A stretch of DNA of 64,000 nt from an uncultured Methanosarcinales archaeon (GTDB taxonomy: Archaea; Nanobdellota; Nanobdellia; Woesearchaeales; ARS49). The position numbers and the translations under genes were made by a program. Under the pieces are notes generated by a model. The model saw nothing but the letters and a program-made list of their open reading frames with translations. It was not told the DNA's origin and ran no database searches. Below, one piece after another: positions 8,712 through 26,455 of this stretch (its first letter is position 1; the number at the start of each line of letters is the position of its first letter). The DNA lies in the NCBI GenBank assembly GCA_964637115.1, contig CAZWVL010000004.1, positions 1 through 64,000 of the forward strand, written 5' to 3'.

Positions 8712-9827
8712 ATGAAAAAATTGCTTGTAATAACAACGGTCGCATTATTGTTCTTAGTGGCATGTGCTCAGGTTGAGCAAAAGCCGTTCAAAGTTGGTAT
8801 AGTCGCTCCAATGACTGGTCCAAATGCGTGGATTGGAGAATTCGTCGTTGGCTCATTGGAAATTGCAAAAGACGAGCTTAATGCTCAAGGCGGCGTGAAT
8901 GGAAAAGCTGTTGAATTTGTTCTCGAGGACGCTGACAATGCGGCCAAGAGTACAACAGGCACGACAAAACTTATTCAGCAGGATAATGTTGATTTGATAT
9001 ACTCTGTGACAACACCAGTGACTGCCGGTGCAAGCGCGATTGCTGAGCAAAATGGCGTTCCGTTGTTCGGCTTTACGGCTGTTCAGACATTTGCCAAGAA
9101 AAACACTTGGGTGTTCAGCGATTTGCGTGATATTGTTAACGAGTGCACATTGTTGGCGCAGACTGCATTAAAGAACAATCATTTGAAACTTGCGTTTCTC
9201 GGTAATGACGCAGATTTTAGCGTTGAATGCCTTGAGACATTGAAGAAAGAGTTCGTACCAAATGGAGGCACAATTGTTGCGAATGAAATGAAGGTAAGTA
9301 ATGACCCTGATGCACGCACGAGTGTTACCAAGCTGAAGAACGCACAGCCTGATGGTGTTTTACTGTTGTGCTGGCCTCCTGATTGTAATCTTATTTACAA
9401 GCAGATGGTTGAGTTGGACTTTATTCCGCAGTTCTATCTTCCGGTTGGAGCTCCATTGGCTGCTAATCCGGTATCAGTTAAGGATTTAGACAAGAATCGC
9501 ATCCTGAAGAATGCATTTGCGGGCGACCAAGGAGTTTCCGCAGATAACCCTTCACCAGAACTTGCAGCGTTTTTCAGTAAACTCGACGCAAAGCTGAAGA
9601 AGACTATTCGCTATGTTGACGCTGCGGCCGCGTATGATAATATGCACGAAATTGCTGTTGCAGCCGGTAAGTGTCCTGAAATAACGAAGGACTGTTTGCG
9701 TGAAAAACTTGCAGAGACTGATTATACTGGAGTTGCAGGCCACGTTGCATTTGAAGGCAGGCATTTTGCTGCAAGACCCCCGCGCATCATACAATATAAG
9801 GTTGACAAGTGGGTGCCGTACTCATAA
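8712..9827 (+). CDS. SBP2: Liv-type substrate-binding lipoprotein (close paralog of SBP8)
   Basis: Lipobox LVAC; KVGIVAPMTGPNA, ELNAQGGVNG, AAYD. Confidence 0.9.
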   Translation: MKKLLVITTVALLFLVACAQVEQKPFKVGIVAPMTGPNAWIGEFVVGSLEIAKDELNAQGGVNGKAVEFVLEDADNAAKSTTGTTKLIQQDNVDLIYSVTTPVTAGASAIAEQNGVPLFGFTAVQTFAKKNTWVFSDLRDIVNECTLLAQTALKNNHLKLAFLGNDADFSVECLETLKKEFVPNGGTIVANEMKVSNDPDARTSVTKLKNAQPDGVLLLCWPPDCNLIYKQMVELDFIPQFYLPVGAPLAANPVSVKDLDKNRILKNAFAGDQGVSADNPSPELAAFFSKLDAKLKKTIRYVDAAAAYDNMHEIAVAAGKCPEITKDCLREKLAETDYTGVAGHVAFEGRHFAARPPRIIQYKVDKWVPYS

Positions 9828-9828
9828 A

Positions 9829-10239
9829 TTATTTTTCTTTCATTAATTGGCGGACATGCTCGAGTAATTTCCGCTGGCCTTGTTTGAGCAGTTTCTTCTG
9901 TTTTTCTTGAAGTTCTCTTATTCGTGCACCGGCTTGTTGATAATGCATTTCATATATGCGCTTATAAAACACTTCCACGCGCGGGTCACCAACGTTTGGC
10001 CCGGAAAATGTCTTCGTTTTATATTCGCTTACTCCAAGTTCAACCCGAAAACAAAAAGCAGAAATGCAAAAAATAGGATCGCAATCACCAAGTCTGGAAT
10101 CTTTGCTTACCTGAACAGATATGTCTTGATAGGTACCGGTATAAGTAAACTCATTGTTAAAACAATTGTGCCCGTACCTCCATTCTTTCACTTTCTTCCC
10201 AAGCTTCAGAAGCTCGTCCAAGGAGAGTTCGTCGGTCAT
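9829..10239 (-). CDS. Hypothetical protein, 'MTDELSL' family member (136 aa)
   Basis: Begins MTDELSLDELLKLGKKVKEW; ATGA overlap with upstream gene. Confidence 0.75.
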   Translation of the reverse strand: MTDELSLDELLKLGKKVKEWRYGHNCFNNEFTYTGTYQDISVQVSKDSRLGDCDPIFCISAFCFRVELGVSEYKTKTFSGPNVGDPRVEVFYKRIYEMHYQQAGARIRELQEKQKKLLKQGQRKLLEHVRQLMKEK

Positions 10240-10676
10240 TTCAGCATTCTCTTGACATACCTAAGTAATTCCTGAGGGCCTTTTTTGAGTAATTTATTTT
10301 GCTCTTTGTCAATTTCTCTTTGTTTCATTTCAAATTGTTTGCAATACGCTGTCTCCACACTTTCATAAAATAGATAAACCTTTTCATCACCTTTGAATTT
10401 TTTAGGTACAGCGTGCCGATAACGCTTGCTCTCACCTAATTTGACATGACGACAAGAAGCAGAAATACGGTATACTGTTGTACCCAAGGCACATCCATGA
10501 AATGCAGTAATGATTATGCCATTGTATAATCCGGAATATTTAGTATAATTTAAACCCGGATCATCTAAATCGGACAGTTTACCTAAAGATGCATCAACTA
10601 CATCTGAATTTCTGCTCCATTCTTTCACTTTCTTCCCAAGCTTCAGAAGTTCGTCCAAGGAGAGTTGATCGGTCAT
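10236..10676 (-). CDS. Hypothetical protein, 'MTDELSL' family member (146 aa)
   Basis: Begins MTDQLSLDELLKLGKKVKEW; ATGA overlaps at both ends. Confidence 0.75.
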   Translation of the reverse strand: MTDQLSLDELLKLGKKVKEWSRNSDVVDASLGKLSDLDDPGLNYTKYSGLYNGIIITAFHGCALGTTVYRISASCRHVKLGESKRYRHAVPKKFKGDEKVYLFYESVETAYCKQFEMKQREIDKEQNKLLKKGPQELLRYVKRMLK

Positions 10677-11323
10677 TGTGCCAATTCTCTCACCATTTTT
10701 AGAGTTGCTCTTCTGTGTTCTTCTGTTTTCTGTATTAGCTTTTCGTTTTCCTTTTTTACAAAATCATAGAATTTTTCTACTGCACCATTATTGCATCTAT
10801 GGCCGACAATAGTGACTGTGTCAATTTCAGTCCTAACACTATAATAATCATCTCGATATCCGATTTTAAAGGCAACTCCTTGCAGAGCTCCCATGAAAAT
10901 GCCAGTATATTCTCTGTCAGCTCCACGCTTCCATGATTCATACCATTTATCGCATTTTTTTCCAAGATTGATGATGTTATCAACACTTGTTTTTGCATCA
11001 ATTTTGAGAATTTCCCACGCACGTCCGCGTGCTACCATTTCGTGTTTTATTTTTACAGAATGAAAGAAGGCTTCAATTTCAGTATTGCTCTTGTTTTCTT
11101 CATAGGTATCGCGTTCATACTTTCCTAGCTCTGTTTTTTCTAATCTTGCCGAAATTTTATAAACGAAGTGTTCCATCCAATTTGAAGGTGCTAAATCCGT
11201 CCTAAAATCTATTCCTTCGTAATTTCCCTCATAACGAAGGCCTTCACGTATGCGGCTTATCTTCCATTCTTTCACTTTATTCCCAAGCTTCAGAAGTTCG
11301 TCTAAAGAGAGTTGGTCGGTCAT
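10673..11323 (-). CDS. Hypothetical protein, 'MTDELSL' family member with two tandem domains (216 aa)
   Basis: Begins MTDQLSLDELLKLGNKVKEW; second copy starts SVDNIINLGKKCDKW. Confidence 0.75.
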   Translation of the reverse strand: MTDQLSLDELLKLGNKVKEWKISRIREGLRYEGNYEGIDFRTDLAPSNWMEHFVYKISARLEKTELGKYERDTYEENKSNTEIEAFFHSVKIKHEMVARGRAWEILKIDAKTSVDNIINLGKKCDKWYESWKRGADREYTGIFMGALQGVAFKIGYRDDYYSVRTEIDTVTIVGHRCNNGAVEKFYDFVKKENEKLIQKTEEHRRATLKMVRELAQ

Positions 11324-18657: not shown

Positions 18658-19698
18658 TCAAAACTCCTTCTTCCACTCGAGCATGACAGCATGGCTGTCA
18701 TCCCAGTGATTTGTAATTGGATTTTCGTTCAGATCTGCTTTGTACCAGATACGCAATCCGCTGTTGCCGAGCTCAAATCGTAAACCGAGCATTGCACCAT
18801 TGGTATCAGTTGCAAAGTTTCTTCGATATTCGATGCTCGGCGTAATGTCATTCAAGAATGCAAAGTCACCTATGTTGAGTGCGCCGCGGATTGATGCTTT
18901 TTTATCATGGGTGTAGGTTGCATCAATGCCGTAATCTCCTGTATCTTTGTCTACATAAATTTCGGCGTTGCCGAAGCTGAATGTTTTGAAGGATAATGGG
19001 AATGTTAAATCGCCCAAGACGCTAAGGGTGTTATGGTCCTCGTCATCAACGCCGAACACTTTTGCACGTTGTGCCCACTGCTTTGAGCCGAGAGTAATAC
19101 GGGCTTCTCTGAAATCGTTTTTACCGATTTTAATGTAGCTCCAGAGTGCTGCACCGTCTAATTTCAAGCTGTATGAAGCGTTTGCTTCCCAGTTGTTTCC
19201 GTTGTTAATATGTCCACCGGCGTATACTAAAGAGTCTCCAATTTCTGCTGTTAGCACACCGCTGGAATTGCCTTTGCTGTCAAATGCTGCTTCTAAGCCG
19301 AAATTGTCATCAAGTTTTAATCCGCCGAGCCAGATTACTTTGTGTTCATTGTTTTCTCTGTCTAACACATCAAATTCCAGTCCTGCAAATCCTTGTTTGG
19401 TATTGTATGAGAGGTATGCTTTGCCTTGGTCTAATGTTGCAGTATCGCGCCAGCCGAGATTAAGCCTGAAATTATCATAGTAAAGGTCTGCACCTATTGC
19501 GGAATTGTCCTTGGAAGTTTCACCCATGACTTTGTTTCCTGCATACGAAACAATAGTCTGAGCTGCTTCATCGTGCCATGTTTCTGCGTATACGCGTGTT
19601 TCCATTTTGACTGGTTTCACGTCCTGCGCAAACGCTCCAGTATAGAGCGCCAGCGCGGAGAGTGATGTCATCACTGCATGTTTGAGTCTCTGTAACAT
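18658..19698 (-). CDS. Secreted beta-strand-rich protein resembling an outer-membrane beta-barrel/porin
   Basis: Sec-type signal ending AFA|Q; many alternating amphipathic strands separated by Gly/Asp/Asn turns; C-terminus AVMLEWKKEF with terminal Phe; no helical TM anchor; ATG at 19698 after GGTGG. Confidence 0.55.
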   Translation of the reverse strand: MLQRLKHAVMTSLSALALYTGAFAQDVKPVKMETRVYAETWHDEAAQTIVSYAGNKVMGETSKDNSAIGADLYYDNFRLNLGWRDTATLDQGKAYLSYNTKQGFAGLEFDVLDRENNEHKVIWLGGLKLDDNFGLEAAFDSKGNSSGVLTAEIGDSLVYAGGHINNGNNWEANASYSLKLDGAALWSYIKIGKNDFREARITLGSKQWAQRAKVFGVDDEDHNTLSVLGDLTFPLSFKTFSFGNAEIYVDKDTGDYGIDATYTHDKKASIRGALNIGDFAFLNDITPSIEYRRNFATDTNGAMLGLRFELGNSGLRIWYKADLNENPITNHWDDSHAVMLEWKKEF

Positions 19699-19735
19699 TT
19701 CCACCACCTATGTTCAGTAGTGACATGAAACTAAT

Positions 19736-19826: not shown

Positions 19827-20738
19827 ATGAAAAGAAAAGTTGTCCGGCAGGGCGCGGCGACATTAATGGTCTCCCTGCCAAGCAAGTGGGCGCATAAAGT
19901 GCACCTGAAGAAAGGCGATGAGATTGACATAGAGGAATCCAACGGCAATCTAGTGATTTCCAAGGAAAAAGTTGAGACCAAAAAGCAGACCACTATCAAC
20001 ATTTCCAGTTATTCAGAATCTTCTATCCGTGTGGCGCTGTGGAACACGTACCGCGCAGGTTACAGCCGCATTGTTGTTAATTTTTCTGATGAAAAACAGT
20101 ACAAAATTGTGAAGGACGTAATTAAAAATTACGTCGTTGGCTTTGATGTTACTAAGAAAGAGAAGAATTCGTGCATTGTTGAAAATATCACAGAGCCCGC
20201 AGAAGAACAATTTGACGTTCTTTTCAGGAAAATCCTGTATAATATCTCTTTGTTAATCAACATTACTGAAGAACGGCTGAGAAATAAGCAAACGAGCGAC
20301 AATTATAATGAAATTGTACTGAAAATCCACCAATATGACAACTTTTGTCGTCGGGTGATTGCGAAAAGGAATTTGTCCGGCAGTGAGGCATATTTGTTAT
20401 GGTCATTCCTCACGTTGCTAATTCACGGACAGAGAGAACTGTACCATTTAAACAGGTACTTAGATAAGAACAAGGTAAAATTCACGAATTTTGAATTTTA
20501 TGGCAAATTGAGAAAAATATTTGATTTATTGAACGAAGGATACGTCAAAAAAGACTTATCAAAATTTGAAAAGATTCATGAATTGGAAAAAGATATCCTA
20601 TATCAGGAATTTTATGGTTTGATTCAGAAAAATCAGAAAGAGAATATAGTGCTTTATCACATTGCTGCTGCAATAAGACAGTTTTATTTGTCAGTAAGTC
20701 CTTTAGTGGGTCTATTATTGGAATCCAATAAGTCGTAG
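19827..20738 (+). CDS. AbrB/SpoVT-domain, PhoU-like transcriptional regulator (copy 1)
   Basis: N-terminal AbrB motif RKVVRQGAATLMVSLPSKW..KGDEIDIEE followed by helical PhoU-like repeats (YDNFCRRVI). Confidence 0.8.
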   Translation: MKRKVVRQGAATLMVSLPSKWAHKVHLKKGDEIDIEESNGNLVISKEKVETKKQTTINISSYSESSIRVALWNTYRAGYSRIVVNFSDEKQYKIVKDVIKNYVVGFDVTKKEKNSCIVENITEPAEEQFDVLFRKILYNISLLINITEERLRNKQTSDNYNEIVLKIHQYDNFCRRVIAKRNLSGSEAYLLWSFLTLLIHGQRELYHLNRYLDKNKVKFTNFEFYGKLRKIFDLLNEGYVKKDLSKFEKIHELEKDILYQEFYGLIQKNQKENIVLYHIAAAIRQFYLSVSPLVGLLLESNKS

Positions 20739-22444
20739 TGAATTCTTCCTTCATTGTCAGTTATGTGATACAATGCGATTGCCCTGTTAATCAGGTTCCT
20801 TTTCGTTCCTGAAAGGAACTCTGAATAGCCTGATATTTCTTGGCCGTTTTTATTTGTTTTAGAATAATTCAGACTGTTTGCTTTTTTGCGTGCTTCAAAT
20901 AATTCTTCTTTGTCACAGAAATATTCTGCACTGACATCAGCAAGTGTTTTATTGGTTCCAAGTTGATTTTTTAAATACAATATTGCATAGAAACGGTATC
21001 TGAATTCATCAGGAGTGGTTTTATCATTAAATTTATTCACAAAATCATTCGGCACTAAAACTGAATTTGTGCGCATTTCTTTGTACTCATCTTGTTTTAA
21101 TTTTTCGTCTTCCATGAGAGCGCTGCGCATTATTGAATAACATAAGCGCTTGCTCATTCTCCTCATATCCATTGTATTGTCAAGTGGGTCTGCAAATATT
21201 CCTTTTTTCGCCTCTTTTAACGGATTTTCTTGTTCCTTGATTTGCTTGAAATAGGGAATAAACTGTTCTGCAATGTCAGAATTTTGTAAAAGATAGTCTA
21301 ATCCGCTGTCAGGATATATTCCTGTCCTTAAGGTTTCGTGTATTGCAGGTTCTTTGAATCGGTCTGCTTTTTCTTGAATCTGCATTAATTTAAGGCCGCC
21401 AAAAATACCGGTTATAATACCAGCAATAGTTGTAAAACCTACTGCATATTTCCTGATTTTTTGCCACGGAACAATGCGCCTGTTGACAGCATCTTCAAAG
21501 TCTCCTTCGAAATTAAAATGTGCCATATTATCAATATACTTCGGATGTTGGACACTGAGGCAATTGCGGAGCATTTTTCTGTATTGTCGTGGAACAAGGG
21601 CGAGGCGTTTTTCCAGAGCAGCGTCGTGTTCATCAAGATTGACATTTGCTATTTGCTTGCCATCCTGTTTAAGTGTTGCTTTGAGTATCTTTCCATCGAC
21701 GAAAATTGGTGTTCCATCTTCATCAGCTACCAATTCAATTTTAAATAGCGGTTCTCCGGTTAAAGCATAGAACATTGTTGCACCTAATGCATAAAACTCG
21801 CTTTGTATTGTTGCCTTGGCTTCTTTTTTGTCAAGGAGTGCATTGAGTATGTTTGGCGCAGTAAATTGTGTTCCACCTCTGGTCGGCAGGAATGATTCTG
21901 TAATGTCTCCGATTTTACCTGCTGTCTGCAGGTCTGAAAGCTTGGCGCTCTCATCACGTATTCCAATGAGTATATTTGATGGCTTGATGTCTCTGTGCAA
22001 AAGGCCTTCGCGCCAGTGTAAATGTTTCAAGCCTGCTGCAACTTGAGAGAATATGTATTTGAACTTCTCTGGTTCGTTTATTTTACCAAATCGAACACGT
22101 TGCTCTAACGAAATGGCTTCATAATATTCTTCAACTGTGATTGTCTTGTCGCCCGTCTTGAACGCATCATTAATCTCTACAATGTTCGGATGCTTGACTT
22201 TGTTCAGTGCTAGGACTTCGCGTTCATCCAGGTCACCTTTTGAGCGGTTAATGGCTGTCGTGATTGAATTCTCATCAATGTGCTCTTTGGGAATCTTGAC
22301 CACACGGACCTTTTCCACGCTGCCGTGCTTGTAAAGTGCTTCGTAAACGTCTCTGGTGTGGCCTTCTCCAAGTTTGCGAATTATCGTATACCCGTTTTCC
22401 TTGAGTAATTGCTCTACTTTAGAGTCGAGTTTAGTTGCTGCCAT
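20684..22444 (-). CDS. Membrane-anchored Hanks-type Ser/Thr protein kinase with C-terminal extracytoplasmic domain
   Basis: LGEGHTRDV, VVKIP, HPNIV, LHRDIKPSNILI, DLQ in place of DFG, GGTQFTAP; TM AVGFTTIAGIITGIFGGL. Confidence 0.85.
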   Translation of the reverse strand: MAATKLDSKVEQLLKENGYTIIRKLGEGHTRDVYEALYKHGSVEKVRVVKIPKEHIDENSITTAINRSKGDLDEREVLALNKVKHPNIVEINDAFKTGDKTITVEEYYEAISLEQRVRFGKINEPEKFKYIFSQVAAGLKHLHWREGLLHRDIKPSNILIGIRDESAKLSDLQTAGKIGDITESFLPTRGGTQFTAPNILNALLDKKEAKATIQSEFYALGATMFYALTGEPLFKIELVADEDGTPIFVDGKILKATLKQDGKQIANVNLDEHDAALEKRLALVPRQYRKMLRNCLSVQHPKYIDNMAHFNFEGDFEDAVNRRIVPWQKIRKYAVGFTTIAGIITGIFGGLKLMQIQEKADRFKEPAIHETLRTGIYPDSGLDYLLQNSDIAEQFIPYFKQIKEQENPLKEAKKGIFADPLDNTMDMRRMSKRLCYSIMRSALMEDEKLKQDEYKEMRTNSVLVPNDFVNKFNDKTTPDEFRYRFYAILYLKNQLGTNKTLADVSAEYFCDKEELFEARKKANSLNYSKTNKNGQEISGYSEFLSGTKRNLINRAIALYHITDNEGRIHYDLLDSNNRPTKGLTDK

Positions 22445-22623
22445 CGTTCTCCTTCAGAAGCTTGTTTACGGCAAATTCTACAAAATGAGACTTGTTGCGA
22501 AAAGCCCCGTTTTGTAGTTTTTCCTCTACCTGCTTGATGGTATTCTCGTCTATGGATATGCTGACTTTGACCTTCATACGGGGTAGTAAGAATTGCCACC
22601 TTTATAAACCTTTCTCTTTTTAG

Positions 22624-22817: not shown

Positions 22818-23334
22818 TCCTCTAACTATTGACTTCAAACTGCAAAGAGAACATTTTGGTCAACTAATTGATATTGACAGAATTGTTTTCCGGCAAGAAC
22901 CTCATCCTAATCAGGTTGCAATAGCAGAGAGGCGACCTGAATTGTACACGGTTATCAGACGCGGAGACCATGTTGTTGGCTATGGTTTAGTTTTGCCATT
23001 GCGAAAAGCTGCGTTAACGGCTTTGAAAGAAGGAAAAATATGGGAAGATGAACTAAACATCGGCTGTCTAACCGACCGGTTGCCAGCTGGCTTTTACATT
23101 TCTTCAATTGCTGCAATACAAGATGCTTCTGAACGAGAGCGCGCAATGATTGTTGGAAGCACAGTCAGCCCTCCATTCCGCACACCTTTTGAAACAATTG
23201 CAATTCCTATTTCAGAAGCTGGTAACAGAATTTGTAGAAATCTGCTTCGTATGATTCCTGTACGAGCACGCACCGAAGTGAAAGGAATCGATGGCTATAC
23301 GCCGACAACATACCAGCGTGGAGGAGCCAAATGA
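22810..23334 (+). CDS. GNAT-fold acetyltransferase-like protein
   Basis: VVGYGLVLPL, FYISSIAA, AIPISEAGNRIC patterns; acetyl-CoA motif A looks degenerate; start MNNPL at 22810 after GGAGG. Confidence 0.5.
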   Translation: MNNPLTIDFKLQREHFGQLIDIDRIVFRQEPHPNQVAIAERRPELYTVIRRGDHVVGYGLVLPLRKAALTALKEGKIWEDELNIGCLTDRLPAGFYISSIAAIQDASERERAMIVGSTVSPPFRTPFETIAIPISEAGNRICRNLLRMIPVRARTEVKGIDGYTPTTYQRGGAK

Positions 23335-25526
23335 AACCGCTTGAACTCCAGCTGAAAGAAATTCTTGGTGTTAAGGAATACAACCGTTTTGCAGATACTG
23401 TGCTTTTCCCTGCTATCGAGCAGCTTGCTGAGAGCGGAAAGCTGAGCAATTCTGATCTTGCCAAATTGGCTAAATTGACAAAGACCTATGGAGCAGGAAT
23501 TTTTGACGTTGCCGCTTCAGACGTGGGAGAGGCAACCAAGCATAATCTGTCAGACGGCTTCTCAATTATTGCAAAATACAAGTTGAATGAGGATTTGGAA
23601 TTCAATCTGTTCGTGAAGAAATTCAGCGACAAAAAAAGCTTTGACCGGGGTGTTCTCATACAGGAAGAAATTGCGCAGCATTTGAGAAACACTGATTTGG
23701 CAGGCGTCGTTCCAGAACAGCTATATAAAAACCGGGGCAAGCGCATTGTTGTTATGCCGCTGGTCGAGGCAAAATCACTCAATGCCGTCTTGCCTGAATC
23801 GAAAGACAAGGAAGAATTGCTTAGAAAAACAATAACAGAATATTTGAAAATAACTGATCATATTGGAGCTAAAAAAGTCTTTGTGCCTCCAAAAAGAAAC
23901 GCCCTCGGAAAACTCTGGTATGATGATTTCAAACTGCCTTCATTGCAGAATTTCGACAGATTTTTTGCAAAGGGCTTTGGTGCTGATGAAAAAATTACAG
24001 AAAGCTACAAGCAGCACATAGGCAGCCGTTTGAACGGAAATACAGGCGATTTCATCCACGGTGATTTGCACCCAGGCAACATTCTGATTAATGACAAGAC
24101 CCATTTCATAGACTGGGAGCTGGCCGCAAATGGTTTTACTGAATTTGACCTTTACAAATTGTTCACAAAATCCAATGTGTCTGATGACCTCGAAGACCGT
24201 TTGCTTGCATATACTGTTATGACTAAGGAAAAACTGCGTGCAAAGCGCGAAAACAGGCAGCCAGCCAGCGCTGACACGCACAGATTGCTATTTGAAGCAT
24301 CTAAGACACGATACAGGTTAAATCAGATTACTCAGGACTTGTTGACTGCTGAACGCTACAACAAGAATGCGCAAAAAGATGTAAAACGCCACGACAAACT
24401 TGAAAAAATGGCATTAACTGCCTATAATATTGCCCTGCGCCATATAGAAAAAGCTGAAAGTGAGGGAATTCTCAGTGCTGATTTCAGGCTGACAATTGAA
24501 GATTTTGTACAAAAGAACAAGCCATATAACCGTATTAATAATGTTGAATTCGCTCAATTATTGAGCGTATATAATCCTCACACAACTCTTTCACAGGATA
24601 ATCTTGTTTCGCACGGCACTGAAATAGGAGCGCCCGTTGACAAAGAATCCAAGCAAAAGAATTTAGAAATTATAAGGAAGAGTTTGCACAAGAAGGATTG
24701 GGGCAAGATTGCAAAACTTGGAATAGCTGCAGCAGTGTTGCTCTGTAGTGCAAGTTATGGTGGACGGAAGTATTTGGAGAGTGAACTTGCAAGAATAAAA
24801 CTCGAGGAAAAGGCTAAACAGGAAGACGCCGATAGTTGGTTTAGAAATGATTTCTGCAAAATTTACGAGACGCGTATTGAGGCTGAGCTGCATGGTGGAA
24901 AGATTCGATGGGCTTATACAGAAGCTGACAAGAGACCGTTGGGAAAAGTGCGGTTAATCGAAGATCGTGAGTTGATCAAAAATACCTGTGACAAGTATAA
25001 TCTTGACTTACAATTTACCAGGAGAATGTATAAGATAAATGCTGCTTTTGCTAACGTTGAAAATAATAAAATGAGTGATAGAGGCATAAATTTCCTTGAT
25101 CCATATAGATTCGTATATACCAAAGGTTCTGAGGCTGATCATTATGATCCAGTAATCAATCTTGAATTTGGTGCAAAAAGATTATCGCGATTGTTTGATA
25201 AGTATAAAGTGGATAGAAATATGATTAAAAATGGGCATCATGTCAATAATGGCAACGATGCAATAAAGAATAATGATTCTTCTTTACAACCATTGATTCG
25301 GGCATTAAAACAGTTTTATACCTTTCAAAAGAATTATACCGAAGATGAGGAAGATAAAAGATATGAAGAGCAGCTAAGCGATGATAAAAAATATAATAAA
25401 AAGCTTGCACGTGGCGTACGTGAAATCATATACGCCTTGTTGACAAATGGTCCCCAATCTGATTTTAATGGTGATATTGTATACTTGGAACAATCAGGAA
25501 TTCCTGACAATTTCATGCGAGAGTAA
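23331..25526 (+). CDS. APH/choline-kinase-family phosphotransferase fused via one TM helix to a lysozyme/SLT-like domain
   Basis: Brenner motif FIHGDLHPGNILI and FIDWE; TM IAKLGIAAAVLLCSASYG; YDPVINLEFGAKRLSRLFDKY resembles the SLT motif. Confidence 0.75.
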   Translation: MKPLELQLKEILGVKEYNRFADTVLFPAIEQLAESGKLSNSDLAKLAKLTKTYGAGIFDVAASDVGEATKHNLSDGFSIIAKYKLNEDLEFNLFVKKFSDKKSFDRGVLIQEEIAQHLRNTDLAGVVPEQLYKNRGKRIVVMPLVEAKSLNAVLPESKDKEELLRKTITEYLKITDHIGAKKVFVPPKRNALGKLWYDDFKLPSLQNFDRFFAKGFGADEKITESYKQHIGSRLNGNTGDFIHGDLHPGNILINDKTHFIDWELAANGFTEFDLYKLFTKSNVSDDLEDRLLAYTVMTKEKLRAKRENRQPASADTHRLLFEASKTRYRLNQITQDLLTAERYNKNAQKDVKRHDKLEKMALTAYNIALRHIEKAESEGILSADFRLTIEDFVQKNKPYNRINNVEFAQLLSVYNPHTTLSQDNLVSHGTEIGAPVDKESKQKNLEIIRKSLHKKDWGKIAKLGIAAAVLLCSASYGGRKYLESELARIKLEEKAKQEDADSWFRNDFCKIYETRIEAELHGGKIRWAYTEADKRPLGKVRLIEDRELIKNTCDKYNLDLQFTRRMYKINAAFANVENNKMSDRGINFLDPYRFVYTKGSEADHYDPVINLEFGAKRLSRLFDKYKVDRNMIKNGHHVNNGNDAIKNNDSSLQPLIRALKQFYTFQKNYTEDEEDKRYEEQLSDDKKYNKKLARGVREIIYALLTNGPQSDFNGDIVYLEQSGIPDNFMRE

Positions 25527-26415
25527 GCGTTTGCCCCATCATTCTTACTATTAATTCTGTCATCTCCCGCAAAAAGCGCAGGACATATGTCTCCTTTGCC
25601 GATTTAGTGCTGTTTAGTTTTCTATCGATTTCAAAAGCAATGCTGTCACGCTCTTTTGCGAGTGCAGCTGCTGCTTCATACGAGAATTCATAGAATAATC
25701 CTTCAAATTTCTTGAAAAGGCGCTGTATTCGGTCATAGAGGGCAATTACCGATGATTCTAATACAACCTTGTTTTTGGTGATATAGCCGGTCAGCAGCTT
25801 GTATTCGTCGCCAAGCTGCTCAAGAAGCATAACAACAGCATACATGACTGGAGTCTTCGAATATTCCGGATACCCATATTTGTTTAGAATACGAAAACAA
25901 TGGTCCGTTACCCTGTTTATGTTGGCTTCCATATCCTCAAGATAGGCGAGGTCTGTTTCTTTTCGTTTTAAGGTTTGAAGGCTTTCGTCAGCTACGGCGC
26001 TTATCATGAAAAATACCCGCCGAAGTATTGGGTCGAATGCGTTTTCAGACACACCCGAAATATCTTTGATGATAAGATAATTTTTGCCTTGCTGGATTAC
26101 TTCCATTCCTATCATTTCCCTGACGCGCTGCTGAATGAGTCTTGCCTTGTTTAACGAGTCAAACTTCACTTCCAGTTCATCAACGCCTTCCAAGTATTTT
26201 GCAGCAACAATTCTTTTGAGCAAATTGTCAAGCTTGCTTAGATCAATGGTCTCCCGCATATGCTTGGGAACGGTTGGCGGGGTCATTACAAGCGTCGTAT
26301 CTTTCTCTTCCAGTTCTATTTCATCACCCGCTTTCAGATTAAGCTTCTTTGTCCACTTGGCAGGCAGTGAAATAGTCAGTGTTGCCGCTCCCTGCTTGAT
26401 TATCTTGCGTCGCAT
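25513..26415 (-). CDS. AbrB/SpoVT-domain, PhoU-like transcriptional regulator (copy 2)
   Basis: MRRKIIKQGAATLTISLPAKW..AGDEIELEE; EANINRVTDHCFRIL and LEQLGDEY PhoU-like motifs; start at 26415. Confidence 0.82.
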   Translation of the reverse strand: MRRKIIKQGAATLTISLPAKWTKKLNLKAGDEIELEEKDTTLVMTPPTVPKHMRETIDLSKLDNLLKRIVAAKYLEGVDELEVKFDSLNKARLIQQRVREMIGMEVIQQGKNYLIIKDISGVSENAFDPILRRVFFMISAVADESLQTLKRKETDLAYLEDMEANINRVTDHCFRILNKYGYPEYSKTPVMYAVVMLLEQLGDEYKLLTGYITKNKVVLESSVIALYDRIQRLFKKFEGLFYEFSYEAAAALAKERDSIAFEIDRKLNSTKSAKETYVLRFLREMTELIVRMMGQTLTLA

Positions 26416-26455
26416 ATCGTCGATAGTCGCTTTCAAGTATATAAATTTTGCCTTT

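What the first reader, a model, noticed from the sequence alone, without database searches (positions are those of the whole stretch)
20684..22444. Hanks-type receptor-like kinase whose ectodomain may be a degenerate lytic-transglycosylase fold
The kinase keeps the catalytic Lys, HRDIKPSN and the Mg-binding Asp, but has DLQ for DFG, a Gly-poor loop (GEGHTRDV) and SE for SD. After one TM helix, the tail reads LCYSIMRSAL...YAILYLKNQL...LADVSAEYFC...YSEFLSGTKRNLINRAIALY. This follows the SLT order (helix with catalytic ES; GAxYLxxL; ALAAYNAG; ETRNYVxxV) without the catalytic ES. Bacterial PknB/PrkC sense muropeptides via PASTA domains. A kinase with an SLT-like sensor in an organism lacking peptidoglycan would be a different way to detect bacteria (inference from weak motifs).
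Basis: inference. Interest (0 to 1): 0.75.

Follow-up and report, generated by a model that had tools for sequence, protein, structure and literature searches.

The report
Archaeal receptor kinase with dead-lysozyme sensor
A small-genome (DPANN-type) archaeon encodes a membrane protein kinase whose outside-facing domain is predicted to have the fold of a bacterial cell-wall-cutting enzyme without its catalytic residue, so it probably acts as a sugar-chain sensor, a type of receptor I found no description of.

Summary
Window 20684-22444 (-) is an intact 586-aa gene: a Hanks-type kinase (Pfam E 3e-32), one TM helix (333-352) and a 234-residue tail.

The fold guess also holds. The tail has no Pfam or PDB sequence match. 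With a 65-sequence family alignment, AlphaFold2 models it at pLDDT 91 / pTM 0.88.
- The top 16 matches among 48,161 PDB chains are lytic transglycosylases or other lysozyme-type wall and chitin hydrolases (MltD Z 10.1, MltF Z 10.0).
- The top five ESM Atlas rows are all SLT clusters.
- A profile comparison with canonical SLT domains from the same archaeal order scores 31.3, against a maximum of 22.5 in 150 column shuffles.
- The catalytic Glu position holds C/I/A/S across the family.

Kinase catalytic residues are near-invariant in 75 members, and D-[LFW]-Q replaces DFG family-wide. Flanking charges put the tail outside.

The gene is paired with a convergent AbrB-type regulator in 12 of 13 loci. 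It is patchy: 13 of 401 genomes in the phylum.

Best reading: a glycan-sensing receptor kinase. Peptidoglycan as the ligand is untested. Earlier scan notes cover this same stretch of this genome only, not other DNA.

The parts
20684..22444 (-). Whole gene: 586-aa single-pass membrane Hanks-type Ser/Thr kinase with an SLT-like ectodomain (P0001).
   Evidence: Intact ORF. The family has 99 cluster representatives, about 70 of them full length with the same architecture.
21551..22390 (-). Cytoplasmic kinase domain, residues 19-298. Key residues: K50, E76, HRDIKPSN 150-157, D171-L-Q173.
   Evidence: Pfam Pkinase E 3.3e-32. Alignment to S6K1 and StkP. Catalytic residues are kept in 71-75 of 75 members.
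21389..21448 (-). Single transmembrane helix, residues 333-352.
   Evidence: It is the only 19-residue window with KD above 1.5. Positive-inside: the N-flank has 5 K+R and net +5, the C-flank net 0. The same holds family-wide, 68 of 75.
20687..21388 (-). Extracytoplasmic tail, residues 353-586. The SLT/lysozyme-like core spans about residues 419-580 (nt 20705-21190).
   Evidence: AF2 pLDDT 91.3, pTM 0.88. VIA Z 10.1 to MltD and 10.0 to MltF, with the whole top of the list in the lysozyme superfamily. Atlas top 5 rows are all PF01464. hhalign against SLT gives P 5e-4; 0 of 150 shuffles reach the real score.
22431..22577 (-). 48-aa mini-ORF that overlaps the kinase start codon. Its sequence pattern looks ribbon-helix-helix-like.
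   Evidence: 68% identical ORF in the same position in L115. tblastn finds it directly upstream of the kinase in 5 of 13 loci searched: L085, L087, L115, L122, L123. No Pfam hit; the RHH fold was not tested.
19827..20738 (+). Convergent 303-aa regulator with an N-terminal AbrB/SpoVT-type domain. Its 3' end overlaps the kinase 3' end by 55 nt. It is the likely output partner or substrate.
   Evidence: Pfam MazE_antitoxin (AbrB fold) E 6e-7. It lies convergently next to the kinase in 12 of 13 independent loci and in L001. It is 55% identical where the kinase tail is only 37%.
23331..25526 (+). Neighbouring 731-aa APH-family kinase (P0002) with one TM helix and a second, unrelated-looking SLT-like tail. 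It is paired with its own convergent AbrB regulator (25513-26436, -).
   Evidence: Pfam APH E 7.6e-11 and a weak SLT hit at E 0.03. hhalign of its tail against SLT gives P 4e-4. In the Atlas feature search, 25 of 30 hits are SLT clusters at 0.94. The AF2 model was too poor to use (pLDDT 54).

Best explanation
The gene encodes a receptor-type Hanks Ser/Thr kinase of a DPANN-type archaeon. The N-terminal kinase domain sits in the cytoplasm and is probably active: all catalytic residues are kept, with a family-specific D-[LFW]-Q in place of DFG and GxGxxR in place of GxGxxG. One helix crosses the membrane.

The outside domain is a highly diverged homologue of family-1 (GH23, SLT-type) lytic transglycosylases. 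It has lost the catalytic Glu-Ser, the GLMQ motif and the AYNAG asparagine. It keeps the fold, the G..YL helix and the groove tyrosine of the AYN motif (Y508).

I read it as a pseudo-enzyme turned ligand-binding sensor for a GlcNAc/MurNAc-type glycan strand or fragment. Occupancy would change kinase activity. The signal would pass to the convergently encoded AbrB-type regulator, which in this genus sits amid Liv-type binding-protein and ABC-transporter operons.

Shown here: gene, architecture, topology, predicted fold, homology to SLT, loss of the catalytic dyad at the aligned position, conservation of the kinase site, and the conserved gene pairing.

Inferred: that it binds a glycan, which glycan, that it does not cleave it, and that the regulator is the substrate.
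For: Architecture.

Family: 99 representatives, about 70 full length, all with HRDxK, D[LF]Q, a TM helix and the tail.

Fold: the AF2 model has pLDDT 91.3. In the VIA wide search the top 16 rows are lytic transglycosylases or other lysozyme-type wall and chitin hydrolases (MltD 10.1, MltF 10.0, Slt 9.2, MltC 8.6, MltE 8.1, g-type lysozyme 8.0, Slt70 7.9). The first clearly unrelated row is at Z 4.5. Foldseek's best hits are MltF, MltD and Slt at probability 0.85-0.89. The ESM Atlas gives five SLT rows at TM 0.51-0.56, then drops to 0.30.

Sequence evidence, not derived from the model: hhalign against 18 canonical SLT domains scores 31.3 over 134 columns. Column shuffles give mean 12.0, sd 2.4, maximum 22.5.

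Catalytic site: the position aligned to the catalytic Glu is A442, and C/I/A/S in the family.

Kinase residues: K50 72/75, E76 71/75, D152 75/75, N157 74/75, D171 75/75.

Topology: 68 of 75 members have a more positive N-flank.

Gene pairing: the regulator is adjacent in 12 of 13 loci.

Lineage context: canonical SLT domains occur in 88 of 151 genomes of the same order. They have been reported as possible bacterial-wall binders in Woese- and Pacearchaeota (PMC8204110).

Divergence: the tail is usually the most diverged part of the protein, as expected for an exposed sensor.
Against: No binding or activity data exist.

The fold rests on a prediction. I could not obtain coordinates, so no residue-level superposition or groove mapping was done.

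Glu445 lies three residues after the aligned catalytic position, at the C-cap of the same helix. It is invariant in the eight closest relatives. Residual activity in this subclade is therefore not excluded. Across the family Glu445 is kept in only 26 of 75 members.

This genome has no canonical SLT, LysM or Amidase_3 genes among those I searched. No peptidoglycan-handling toolkit accompanies the sensor here.

The host or partner organism is unknown.

The Liv context is not conserved in distant members.
Confidence: 0.55

Rival explanations
1. The ectodomain is SLT-derived, but it no longer binds any glycan. It serves as a dimerisation or protein-docking module, or it binds an unrelated ligand. 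The kinase would then report something else, such as contact with a partner-cell surface protein or envelope stress.
For: Most canonical substrate-contact motifs (ES, GLMQ, the N of AYNAG) are gone. Pfam SLT matches none of 65 tails, even at E 0.1. The tail evolves faster than the kinase and the regulator. Other lysozyme-fold proteins are known to have become non-enzymatic (alpha-lactalbumin; own knowledge).
Against: The most conserved tail residues are rich in aromatic and polar side chains: Y454, R458, Y490, Y508, F509, Y527, G539-Y540, Y559. That mix is typical of sugar-binding grooves, and it includes the groove Tyr of the AYN motif. However, the residues were not mapped onto the model.
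Confidence: 0.25
2. The ectodomain is still an active glycan-cleaving enzyme that uses a shifted acid (Glu445, possibly with Asp446). The protein would be a bifunctional membrane-anchored lytic enzyme and kinase.
For: Glu445 sits at the C-terminal cap of the helix that carries the catalytic Glu in SLTs. It lies 20 residues before the conserved Pro465, close to the 21-residue Glu-to-Pro spacing in canonical ES...GLMQLMP. It is invariant in the eight closest relatives.
Against: Profile alignment and the hydrophobic register of the helix put the catalytic position at A442, not E445. Glu445 is kept in only 26 of 75 family members, and 18 have a gap there. No other acid is conserved nearby. GLMQ is absent.
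Confidence: 0.1
3. The lysozyme-like fold is an artefact of structure prediction or of generic helical similarity. The tail would be an unrelated helical domain.
For: The tool's own note warns that helical models can reach middling Z scores by chance. Foldseek E-values are only 0.18-0.35. hhalign probability is 31%. The Atlas feature search gave no hit for this tail.
Against: Several searches converge on one superfamily and nothing else. Two structure-library searches (VIA wide, ESM Atlas) use the same AF2 model. The profile-profile comparison uses no structure. The first unrelated VIA row is at Z 4.5, against 10.1 for the best. The profile score lies about 8 sd above column-shuffled controls. 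All five AF2 models score 86.7-91.3.
Confidence: 0.05

Closest known systems
PASTA-domain Hanks kinases of bacteria (PknB, PrkC, StkP, Stk1)
   Same: Single-pass membrane Ser/Thr kinase with a cytoplasmic ePK domain and an extracellular domain related to cell-wall glycans. StkP is among the best PDB sequence matches of the kinase domain. NCBIfam PknB_PASTA_kin matches the kinase part only.
   Different: There is no PASTA domain here (no Pfam hit in the tail). The sensor is instead a lysozyme/SLT-fold pseudo-enzyme. The host is an archaeon in which I found no peptidoglycan machinery. DFG is D-L-Q and the third loop glycine is Arg. The conserved partner is an AbrB-type regulator encoded convergently.
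Family-1 lytic transglycosylases, GH23 / Pfam SLT PF01464 (MltD 8rhe, MltF 5aa1, Slt70 1qsa, MltC, MltE)
   Same: Predicted fold (Z 8-10, 129-175 residues aligned). Same order of helices and motifs. The G..YL helix and the Tyr of AYN are kept.
   Different: No Pfam match. The catalytic Glu-Ser is replaced by small or hydrophobic residues. GLMQ and AYNAG are not kept. The domain is fused through a TM helix to a kinase. Family-specific motifs take their place: R458, VP465..F468, ITD..G566.
Large extracellular SLT-domain proteins of Woesearchaeota and Pacearchaeota (Castelle et al. 2021, PMC8204110)
   Same: Same archaeal lineage, same domain superfamily and extracellular location. They are a plausible evolutionary source. 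Canonical SLT domains were found in 88 of 151 genomes of the order.
   Different: Those proteins keep ES, GLMQLMP, AAYNAG and ET..YV and are presumed enzymes. They are not fused to kinases. This genome has none.
Plant LysM receptor kinases (CERK1 / LYK family) and enzyme-fold sensors such as BlaR1/MecR1 or chitinase-like lectins
   Same: Same functional logic: a kinase or signalling module coupled to a glycan- or wall-fragment-binding ectodomain, or an enzyme fold re-used as a non-catalytic sensor (own knowledge).
   Different: Different sensor folds and no common descent. This is analogy only.

Membership tests
Hanks-type (eukaryote-like) protein kinases, Pfam PF00069 | Profile match above the curated cut-off | tested here: met
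   112.4 bits against a cut-off of 31.7, residues 19-298.
Hanks-type (eukaryote-like) protein kinases, Pfam PF00069 | Catalytic residues: VAIK Lys, alpha-C Glu, HRD Asp, catalytic-loop Asn, and the Asp of DFG | tested here: met
   K50, E76, D152, N157 and D171 are present. They are kept in 71-75 of 75 family members.
Hanks-type (eukaryote-like) protein kinases, Pfam PF00069 | Canonical DFG glycine and the third glycine of GxGxxG | tested here: not met
   The DFG motif is D171-L-Q173 (Q in 72 of 75). The loop is GxGxxR (R31 in 62 of 75). These are variant features, not loss of the Mg-binding Asp.
Hanks-type (eukaryote-like) protein kinases, Pfam PF00069 | Phosphotransfer activity | not testable with these tools
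   Needs an autophosphorylation assay.
GH23 / SLT lytic transglycosylases (Pfam PF01464, lysozyme-like clan) | Lysozyme-like alpha-helical fold with a substrate groove | tested here: met
   The predicted model (pLDDT 91.3) matches MltD, MltF, Slt, MltC and MltE at Z 8-10 and SLT clusters in the ESM Atlas at TM 0.51-0.56. This is a prediction, not an experiment.
GH23 / SLT lytic transglycosylases (Pfam PF01464, lysozyme-like clan) | Sequence-profile membership (Pfam SLT hit) | tested here: not met
   0 of 65 tails match PF01464 at E <= 0.1. Only profile-profile similarity is seen: hhalign score 31.3, P 5e-4, and 0 of 150 shuffles reach it.
GH23 / SLT lytic transglycosylases (Pfam PF01464, lysozyme-like clan) | Catalytic Glu (E-S) at the end of the first core helix | tested here: not met
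   The aligned position is A442, and C26 / I20 / A10 / S5 / V4 in 75 members. Glu445, three residues later, is kept in only 26 of 75, so the test is inconclusive for this subclade alone.
GH23 / SLT lytic transglycosylases (Pfam PF01464, lysozyme-like clan) | GLMQ and AYNAG substrate-contact motifs | tested here: not met
   GLMQ has no counterpart; the family motif there is R458...VP465..F468. Of AYNAG only A506 and Y508 (95%) are kept, and the Asn is F509.
PASTA-domain receptor kinases (PknB/PrkC/StkP) | Extracellular PASTA repeats | tested here: not met
   No PASTA or any other Pfam family matches the tail.

The most novel reading that the evidence does not exclude
A lineage of small, presumably partner-dependent archaea turned a bacterial-type lytic transglycosylase into a catalytically dead receptor and fused it to a Ser/Thr kinase. 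In the same locus a second SLT-like tail is fused to an APH-type kinase. The purpose would be to sense peptidoglycan strands or fragments of bacterial neighbours or hosts. Through a dedicated AbrB-type regulator, the signal would switch on nutrient-uptake or attachment genes. That would be an archaeal bacteria-detection pathway with no described counterpart.
Probability: 0.3. Interest if true: 0.85.

Novelty: new variant of a known kind. Interest (0 to 1): 0.66.

Why it matters
How DPANN archaea recognise partners or hosts is largely unknown, and almost nothing is known about the inputs of archaeal Hanks-type kinases.

This family gives a concrete, testable receptor: a soluble ectodomain of about 230 residues that can be expressed and screened against peptidoglycan, chitin and archaeal wall glycans. 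It also comes with an obvious candidate output, the conserved convergent regulator.

If the ligand is peptidoglycan, that would be independent support for the idea that some Woese- and Pacearchaeota live on bacteria (PMC8204110). It would also add a third, independently evolved way to couple wall-glycan sensing to a Ser/Thr kinase, alongside PASTA kinases and plant LysM receptor kinases.

It would further be a clear example of an enzyme-to-sensor conversion. The D-x-Q / GxGxxR kinase variant deserves biochemical attention in its own right.

Tried and rejected
Searches with this gene's tail that found nothing:
- Pfam on the tail alone and on all 65 family tails: no SLT or other consistent family.
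- PDB sequence search with the tail and with the family profile: only noise at E > 1.
- ESM Atlas feature search: no usable hit.

Comparing the two tails in the locus:
- BLASTP: nothing.
- hhalign of the P0002 tail against the P0001 tail family: P 0.15, no support. Each tail resembles SLT, but they do not detectably resemble each other.

The P0002 tail:
- The word-indexed homologue search returned nothing, because the cluster representative is a truncated fragment.
- The search in 40 relatives gave only spurious weak hits; L083 is a methionyl-tRNA synthetase.
- AF2 with 3 sequences gave pLDDT 54, which I judged unusable and did not send to fold search.

Other points:
- The regulator has no PDB sequence match. 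The 'PhoU-like' label that earlier notes give its C-terminal part was not tested here.
- Co-occurrence of the kinase family with canonical SLT genes looked no higher than the order-wide background of 88/151. Only G030 and G083 clearly show both, and the own genome has none. The numbers are too small to use.
- I considered a complex prediction (kinase with regulator, or an ectodomain dimer) and did not run it. No binding claim here rests on it, and enzyme-substrate pairs are poor cases for that test.
- mafft --auto timed out once and was rerun with fast settings.
Full report
**1. The observation**

Window 20684-22444 (-) is an intact 586-codon ORF, stored as P0001. Pfam Pkinase matches residues 19-298 at E 3.3e-32. 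The best solved relatives are S6K1 and the pneumococcal PASTA kinase StkP.

There is one hydrophobic segment, residues 333-351 (Kyte-Doolittle 1.57). The next best window scores 0.92.

The genome is a 1.27-Mb, 98%-complete archaeal assembly. It has an RFC large subunit and a FlaI-like ATPase. Its relatives are all 0.6-2.7 Mb. Earlier notes of this scan call it a DPANN/Woesearchaeota-type archaeon; I did not verify that label independently.

No transpeptidase, SEDS protein, LysM, Amidase_3 or canonical SLT was found in the genome. The single Mur_ligase_M hit says little. That search also rings in the archaeal control genomes Methanocaldococcus jannaschii, Haloferax volcanii and Methanosarcina acetivorans.

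**2. The family**

The word-indexed search with the tail found 8 full-length proteins. The exhaustive search against 1.84 billion representatives found 99 clusters at E <= 1e-3, of which 49 are at E <= 1e-10. About 70 are 570-720 aa long with the same plan: HRDxK, D[LF]Q about 20 residues later, one TM helix near residue 340-380, then the tail.

In 75 full-length members the catalytic machinery is almost invariant:
- K50: 72 of 75
- E76: 71 of 75
- D152: 75 of 75
- K154: 74 of 75
- N157: 74 of 75
- D171: 75 of 75

The oddities are family signatures, not decay. Q173 is present in 72 of 75, position 172 is L/F/W, and the third loop glycine is Arg in 62 of 75. I therefore take the kinase to be active; this is an inference from conservation.

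The residues flanking the TM helix obey the positive-inside rule. Mean net charge is +2.9 on the kinase side and -0.1 on the tail side, and the N-flank is the more positive one in 68 of 75 members. No member has a second hydrophobic segment. The tail is therefore extracytoplasmic.

**3. The ectodomain fold**

The tail has no Pfam match, alone or in any of 65 relatives. It has no PDB sequence or profile match.

With the 65-sequence tail alignment A2, AlphaFold2 gives a confident model: mean pLDDT 91.3, pTM 0.88, and all five models between 86.7 and 91.3.

Two further structure-library searches of that model, and one sequence-only comparison, agree on what it resembles.

(a) VIA-align against 48,161 PDB representatives:

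| Match | Z | Note |
|---|---|---|
| MltD 8rhe | 10.1 | 175 residues aligned |
| MltF 5aa1 | 10.0 | |
| Slt 5o2n | 9.2 | |
| MltC | 8.6 | |
| Cj0843c | 8.6 | |
| MltE | 8.1 | |
| g-type lysozyme | 8.0 | |
| Slt70 | 7.9 | |
| Ralstonia chitinase catalytic domain (3w6b) | 7.3 | |
| Tse3 | 7.2 | |

Rows down to about rank 32 are lytic transglycosylases, lysozymes, endolysins, glucosaminidases, chitinases and other wall or glycan hydrolases. The first clearly unrelated row is at Z 4.5. Foldseek's best hits are the same proteins (MltF, MltD, Slt) at probability 0.85-0.89, although its E-values are only 0.18-0.35.

(b) In the ESM Atlas the first five rows are all clusters carrying PF01464 (SLT), several with LysM as in MltD. 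Their TM scores are 0.51-0.56 over 158-172 residues. The next row drops to 0.25-0.30.

(c) Without using the model, I collected canonical SLT domains from genomes of the same archaeal order. PF01464 is over its cut-off in 88 of 151 genomes searched. These domains show textbook ES, GLMQLMP, AAYNAG and ET..YV..V motifs. I aligned 18 of them as A3.

hhalign of A2 against A3 scores 31.3 (P 5e-4) over 134 columns. After permuting the columns of A2 150 times, the score has mean 12.0, sd 2.4 and maximum 22.5. The tail is therefore a true, very diverged SLT homologue.

| P0001 tail segment | Canonical SLT element |
|---|---|
| ..RLCYSIMRSAL.. helix | Helix that ends in ES |
| YAILYLKNQL | NI..G..YL..L |
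| LADVSAEYFC | LALAAYN.G |
| GTKRNLINRAIALY | ET..YV.KV |

**4. The catalytic site**

In the profile alignment the catalytic Glu falls on A442. In 75 members that column is C26 / I20 / A10 / S5 / V4, so it is never predominantly acidic. The hydrophobic register of the helix supports this placement: L434, S437, I438 and M439 fall on L, A, I and I of L[IV]xA[IV]IxxES.

GLMQ has no counterpart. The family instead has a nearly invariant R458 and V464-P465..F468. Of AYNAG, A506 and Y508 (95%) survive, and the Asn is F509.

Other near-invariant tail residues are L491, A518, G539-Y540, A555, Y559 and G566, within a C-terminal I-T-D-x-E-G motif.

One caveat remains. Glu445 sits at the C-cap of the same helix, three residues beyond the aligned position. 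It is invariant in the eight closest relatives, and its spacing to Pro465 (20 residues) is close to the canonical Glu-to-Pro spacing (21). It is present in only 26 of 75 members, with a gap in 18.

My reading is that the family as a whole is non-catalytic. I keep about 10% for residual activity in this subclade. I could not obtain model coordinates, so a residue-level superposition is still needed.

**5. Genomic context**

In every locus I could inspect but one, the kinase gene is followed by a convergent gene of about 300 aa. Its N-terminus is an AbrB/SpoVT-type DNA-binding domain (Pfam MazE_antitoxin), and its 3' end abuts or overlaps the kinase's 3' end.
- This holds in 12 of 13 loci by tblastn and in the gene calls of three contigs.
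- It also holds on the 8.4-kb contig binned as 'Methanosarcinales archaeon'. That contig carries a 626-aa member with DFQ, followed by a barrel-like exported protein, as in this window.
- The regulator is better conserved than the tail. In L116 it is 55% identical against 37% for the tail.

A 48-aa ORF overlaps the kinase start (22431-22577). It recurs upstream in 5 of the 13 loci. Its strand-helix-helix pattern suggests a ribbon-helix-helix protein, but there is no Pfam hit.

The wider context is not conserved. In this window and in L115 the module sits between Liv-type binding-protein operons. In L116 it sits among translation genes. In G083 it lies two genes from a 724-aa Amidase_3 + SLT protein, which is a single anecdote.

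The gene is patchy and single-copy. It was found in 4 of 41 close relatives and 13 of 401 genomes of the phylum. One of those 13, G408, is an unpublished genome; only that count rests on it.

**6. The neighbouring kinase**

P0002 (23331-25526, +) is an APH-family kinase (E 7.6e-11) with one TM helix and a 250-residue tail. It has its own convergent AbrB regulator at 25513-26436.

Its tail shows several weak signs of SLT ancestry:
- a weak Pfam SLT hit (E 0.03) on the DP..N...GA..L helix;
- hhalign against canonical SLT at P 4e-4, with I-N-A-A at the ES position;
- 25 of 30 nearest named Atlas clusters by language-model features are SLT, at score 0.94.

Its AF2 model was too poor to use (pLDDT 54 with 3 sequences).

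The two tails are not detectably similar to each other. So two kinases of different superfamilies in one locus each appear to carry an SLT-derived, ES-less ectodomain. This favours a shared sensing theme. The evidence for P0002 is lead-grade only.

**7. Mechanism and rivals**

Best reading (0.55): a receptor kinase whose dead-SLT ectodomain binds a GlcNAc/MurNAc-type glycan and controls phosphorylation of the paired AbrB-type regulator.

Peptidoglycan is the most economical candidate ligand, for two reasons. SLT domains bind it, and canonical SLT proteins are common in this archaeal order, where they have been proposed to bind bacterial walls (PMC8204110). But nothing here tests the ligand, and this genome lacks the other peptidoglycan-related domains I searched for.

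Rivals:
- A non-glycan docking or dimerisation role (0.25).
- A still-active enzyme using Glu445 (0.10).
- A prediction artefact (0.05).

**8. Novelty**

Full-text searches for SLT or lysozyme-like sensor domains on Ser/Thr kinases, and for archaeal receptor kinases, found the DPANN SLT papers and reviews of PASTA kinases. They found no description of this architecture. Absence from that library is not proof.

I class the finding as a new variant of a known kind: a receptor Ser/Thr kinase with a new sensor type, and a new non-catalytic branch of the SLT superfamily.

Nothing was reported on other DNA.

Noticed in passing
window 23331-25526 (+): A second membrane kinase, of the APH/choline-kinase family, with one TM helix and a tail that also looks SLT-derived but lacks the ES dyad. 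Evidence: Pfam SLT E 0.03, hhalign against SLT P 4e-4, and 25 of 30 Atlas feature hits are SLT. The fold prediction failed for lack of homologues. A 66%-identical orthologue sits in the same arrangement in L115.
   Followed up: partly
window 22431-22577 (-): A 48-aa ORF that overlaps the kinase start codon. Its sequence pattern is ribbon-helix-helix-like. It is 68% identical in L115 and is found upstream of the kinase in 5 of 13 related loci. It has no Pfam family.
   Followed up: partly
window 19827-20738 (+) and 25513-26436 (-): Two paralogous ~300-aa regulators with an N-terminal AbrB/SpoVT domain and an unassigned ~250-residue C-terminal part. Each is convergent with a membrane kinase and overlaps its 3' end (by 55 nt and 14 nt). 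The pairing is conserved far beyond this genus.
   Followed up: partly
window 18658-19707 (-); also L001 6153-7166 (+): An exported protein with a signal peptide, no Pfam family and a C-terminal Phe, next to the kinase-regulator pair. A similar gene follows the module on the distant contig L001. Earlier scan notes read it as a porin-like beta-barrel; I did not test that.
   Followed up: no
genomes of the same order; loci L090-L114: Canonical SLT domains with intact ES, GLMQLMP and AAYNAG motifs occur in 88 of 151 genomes of this archaeal order, often in proteins of 700-1300 aa. None was found in this genome or in the one other member of its family in that sample.
   Followed up: partly
L127 (G083:C7) 9148-11322 (+): A 724-aa protein that combines N-acetylmuramoyl-L-alanine amidase (Amidase_3) and SLT domains lies two genes from that genome's copy of the kinase. 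This is a single case.
   Followed up: no
G000 contigs C1, C7 and C4: This 1.27-Mb genome encodes five full Pkinase-domain proteins in open frames of 589-809 aa. That is a large complement of receptor-like kinases for so small a genome. Only this one carries the A2-type tail.
   Followed up: no
L001 (CAYZMD010000061.1, 8.4 kb): The only family member that the pattern scan found among GTDB species representatives is on a short contig binned as 'uncultured Methanosarcinales archaeon'. It could be a binning error or a transfer.
   Followed up: no
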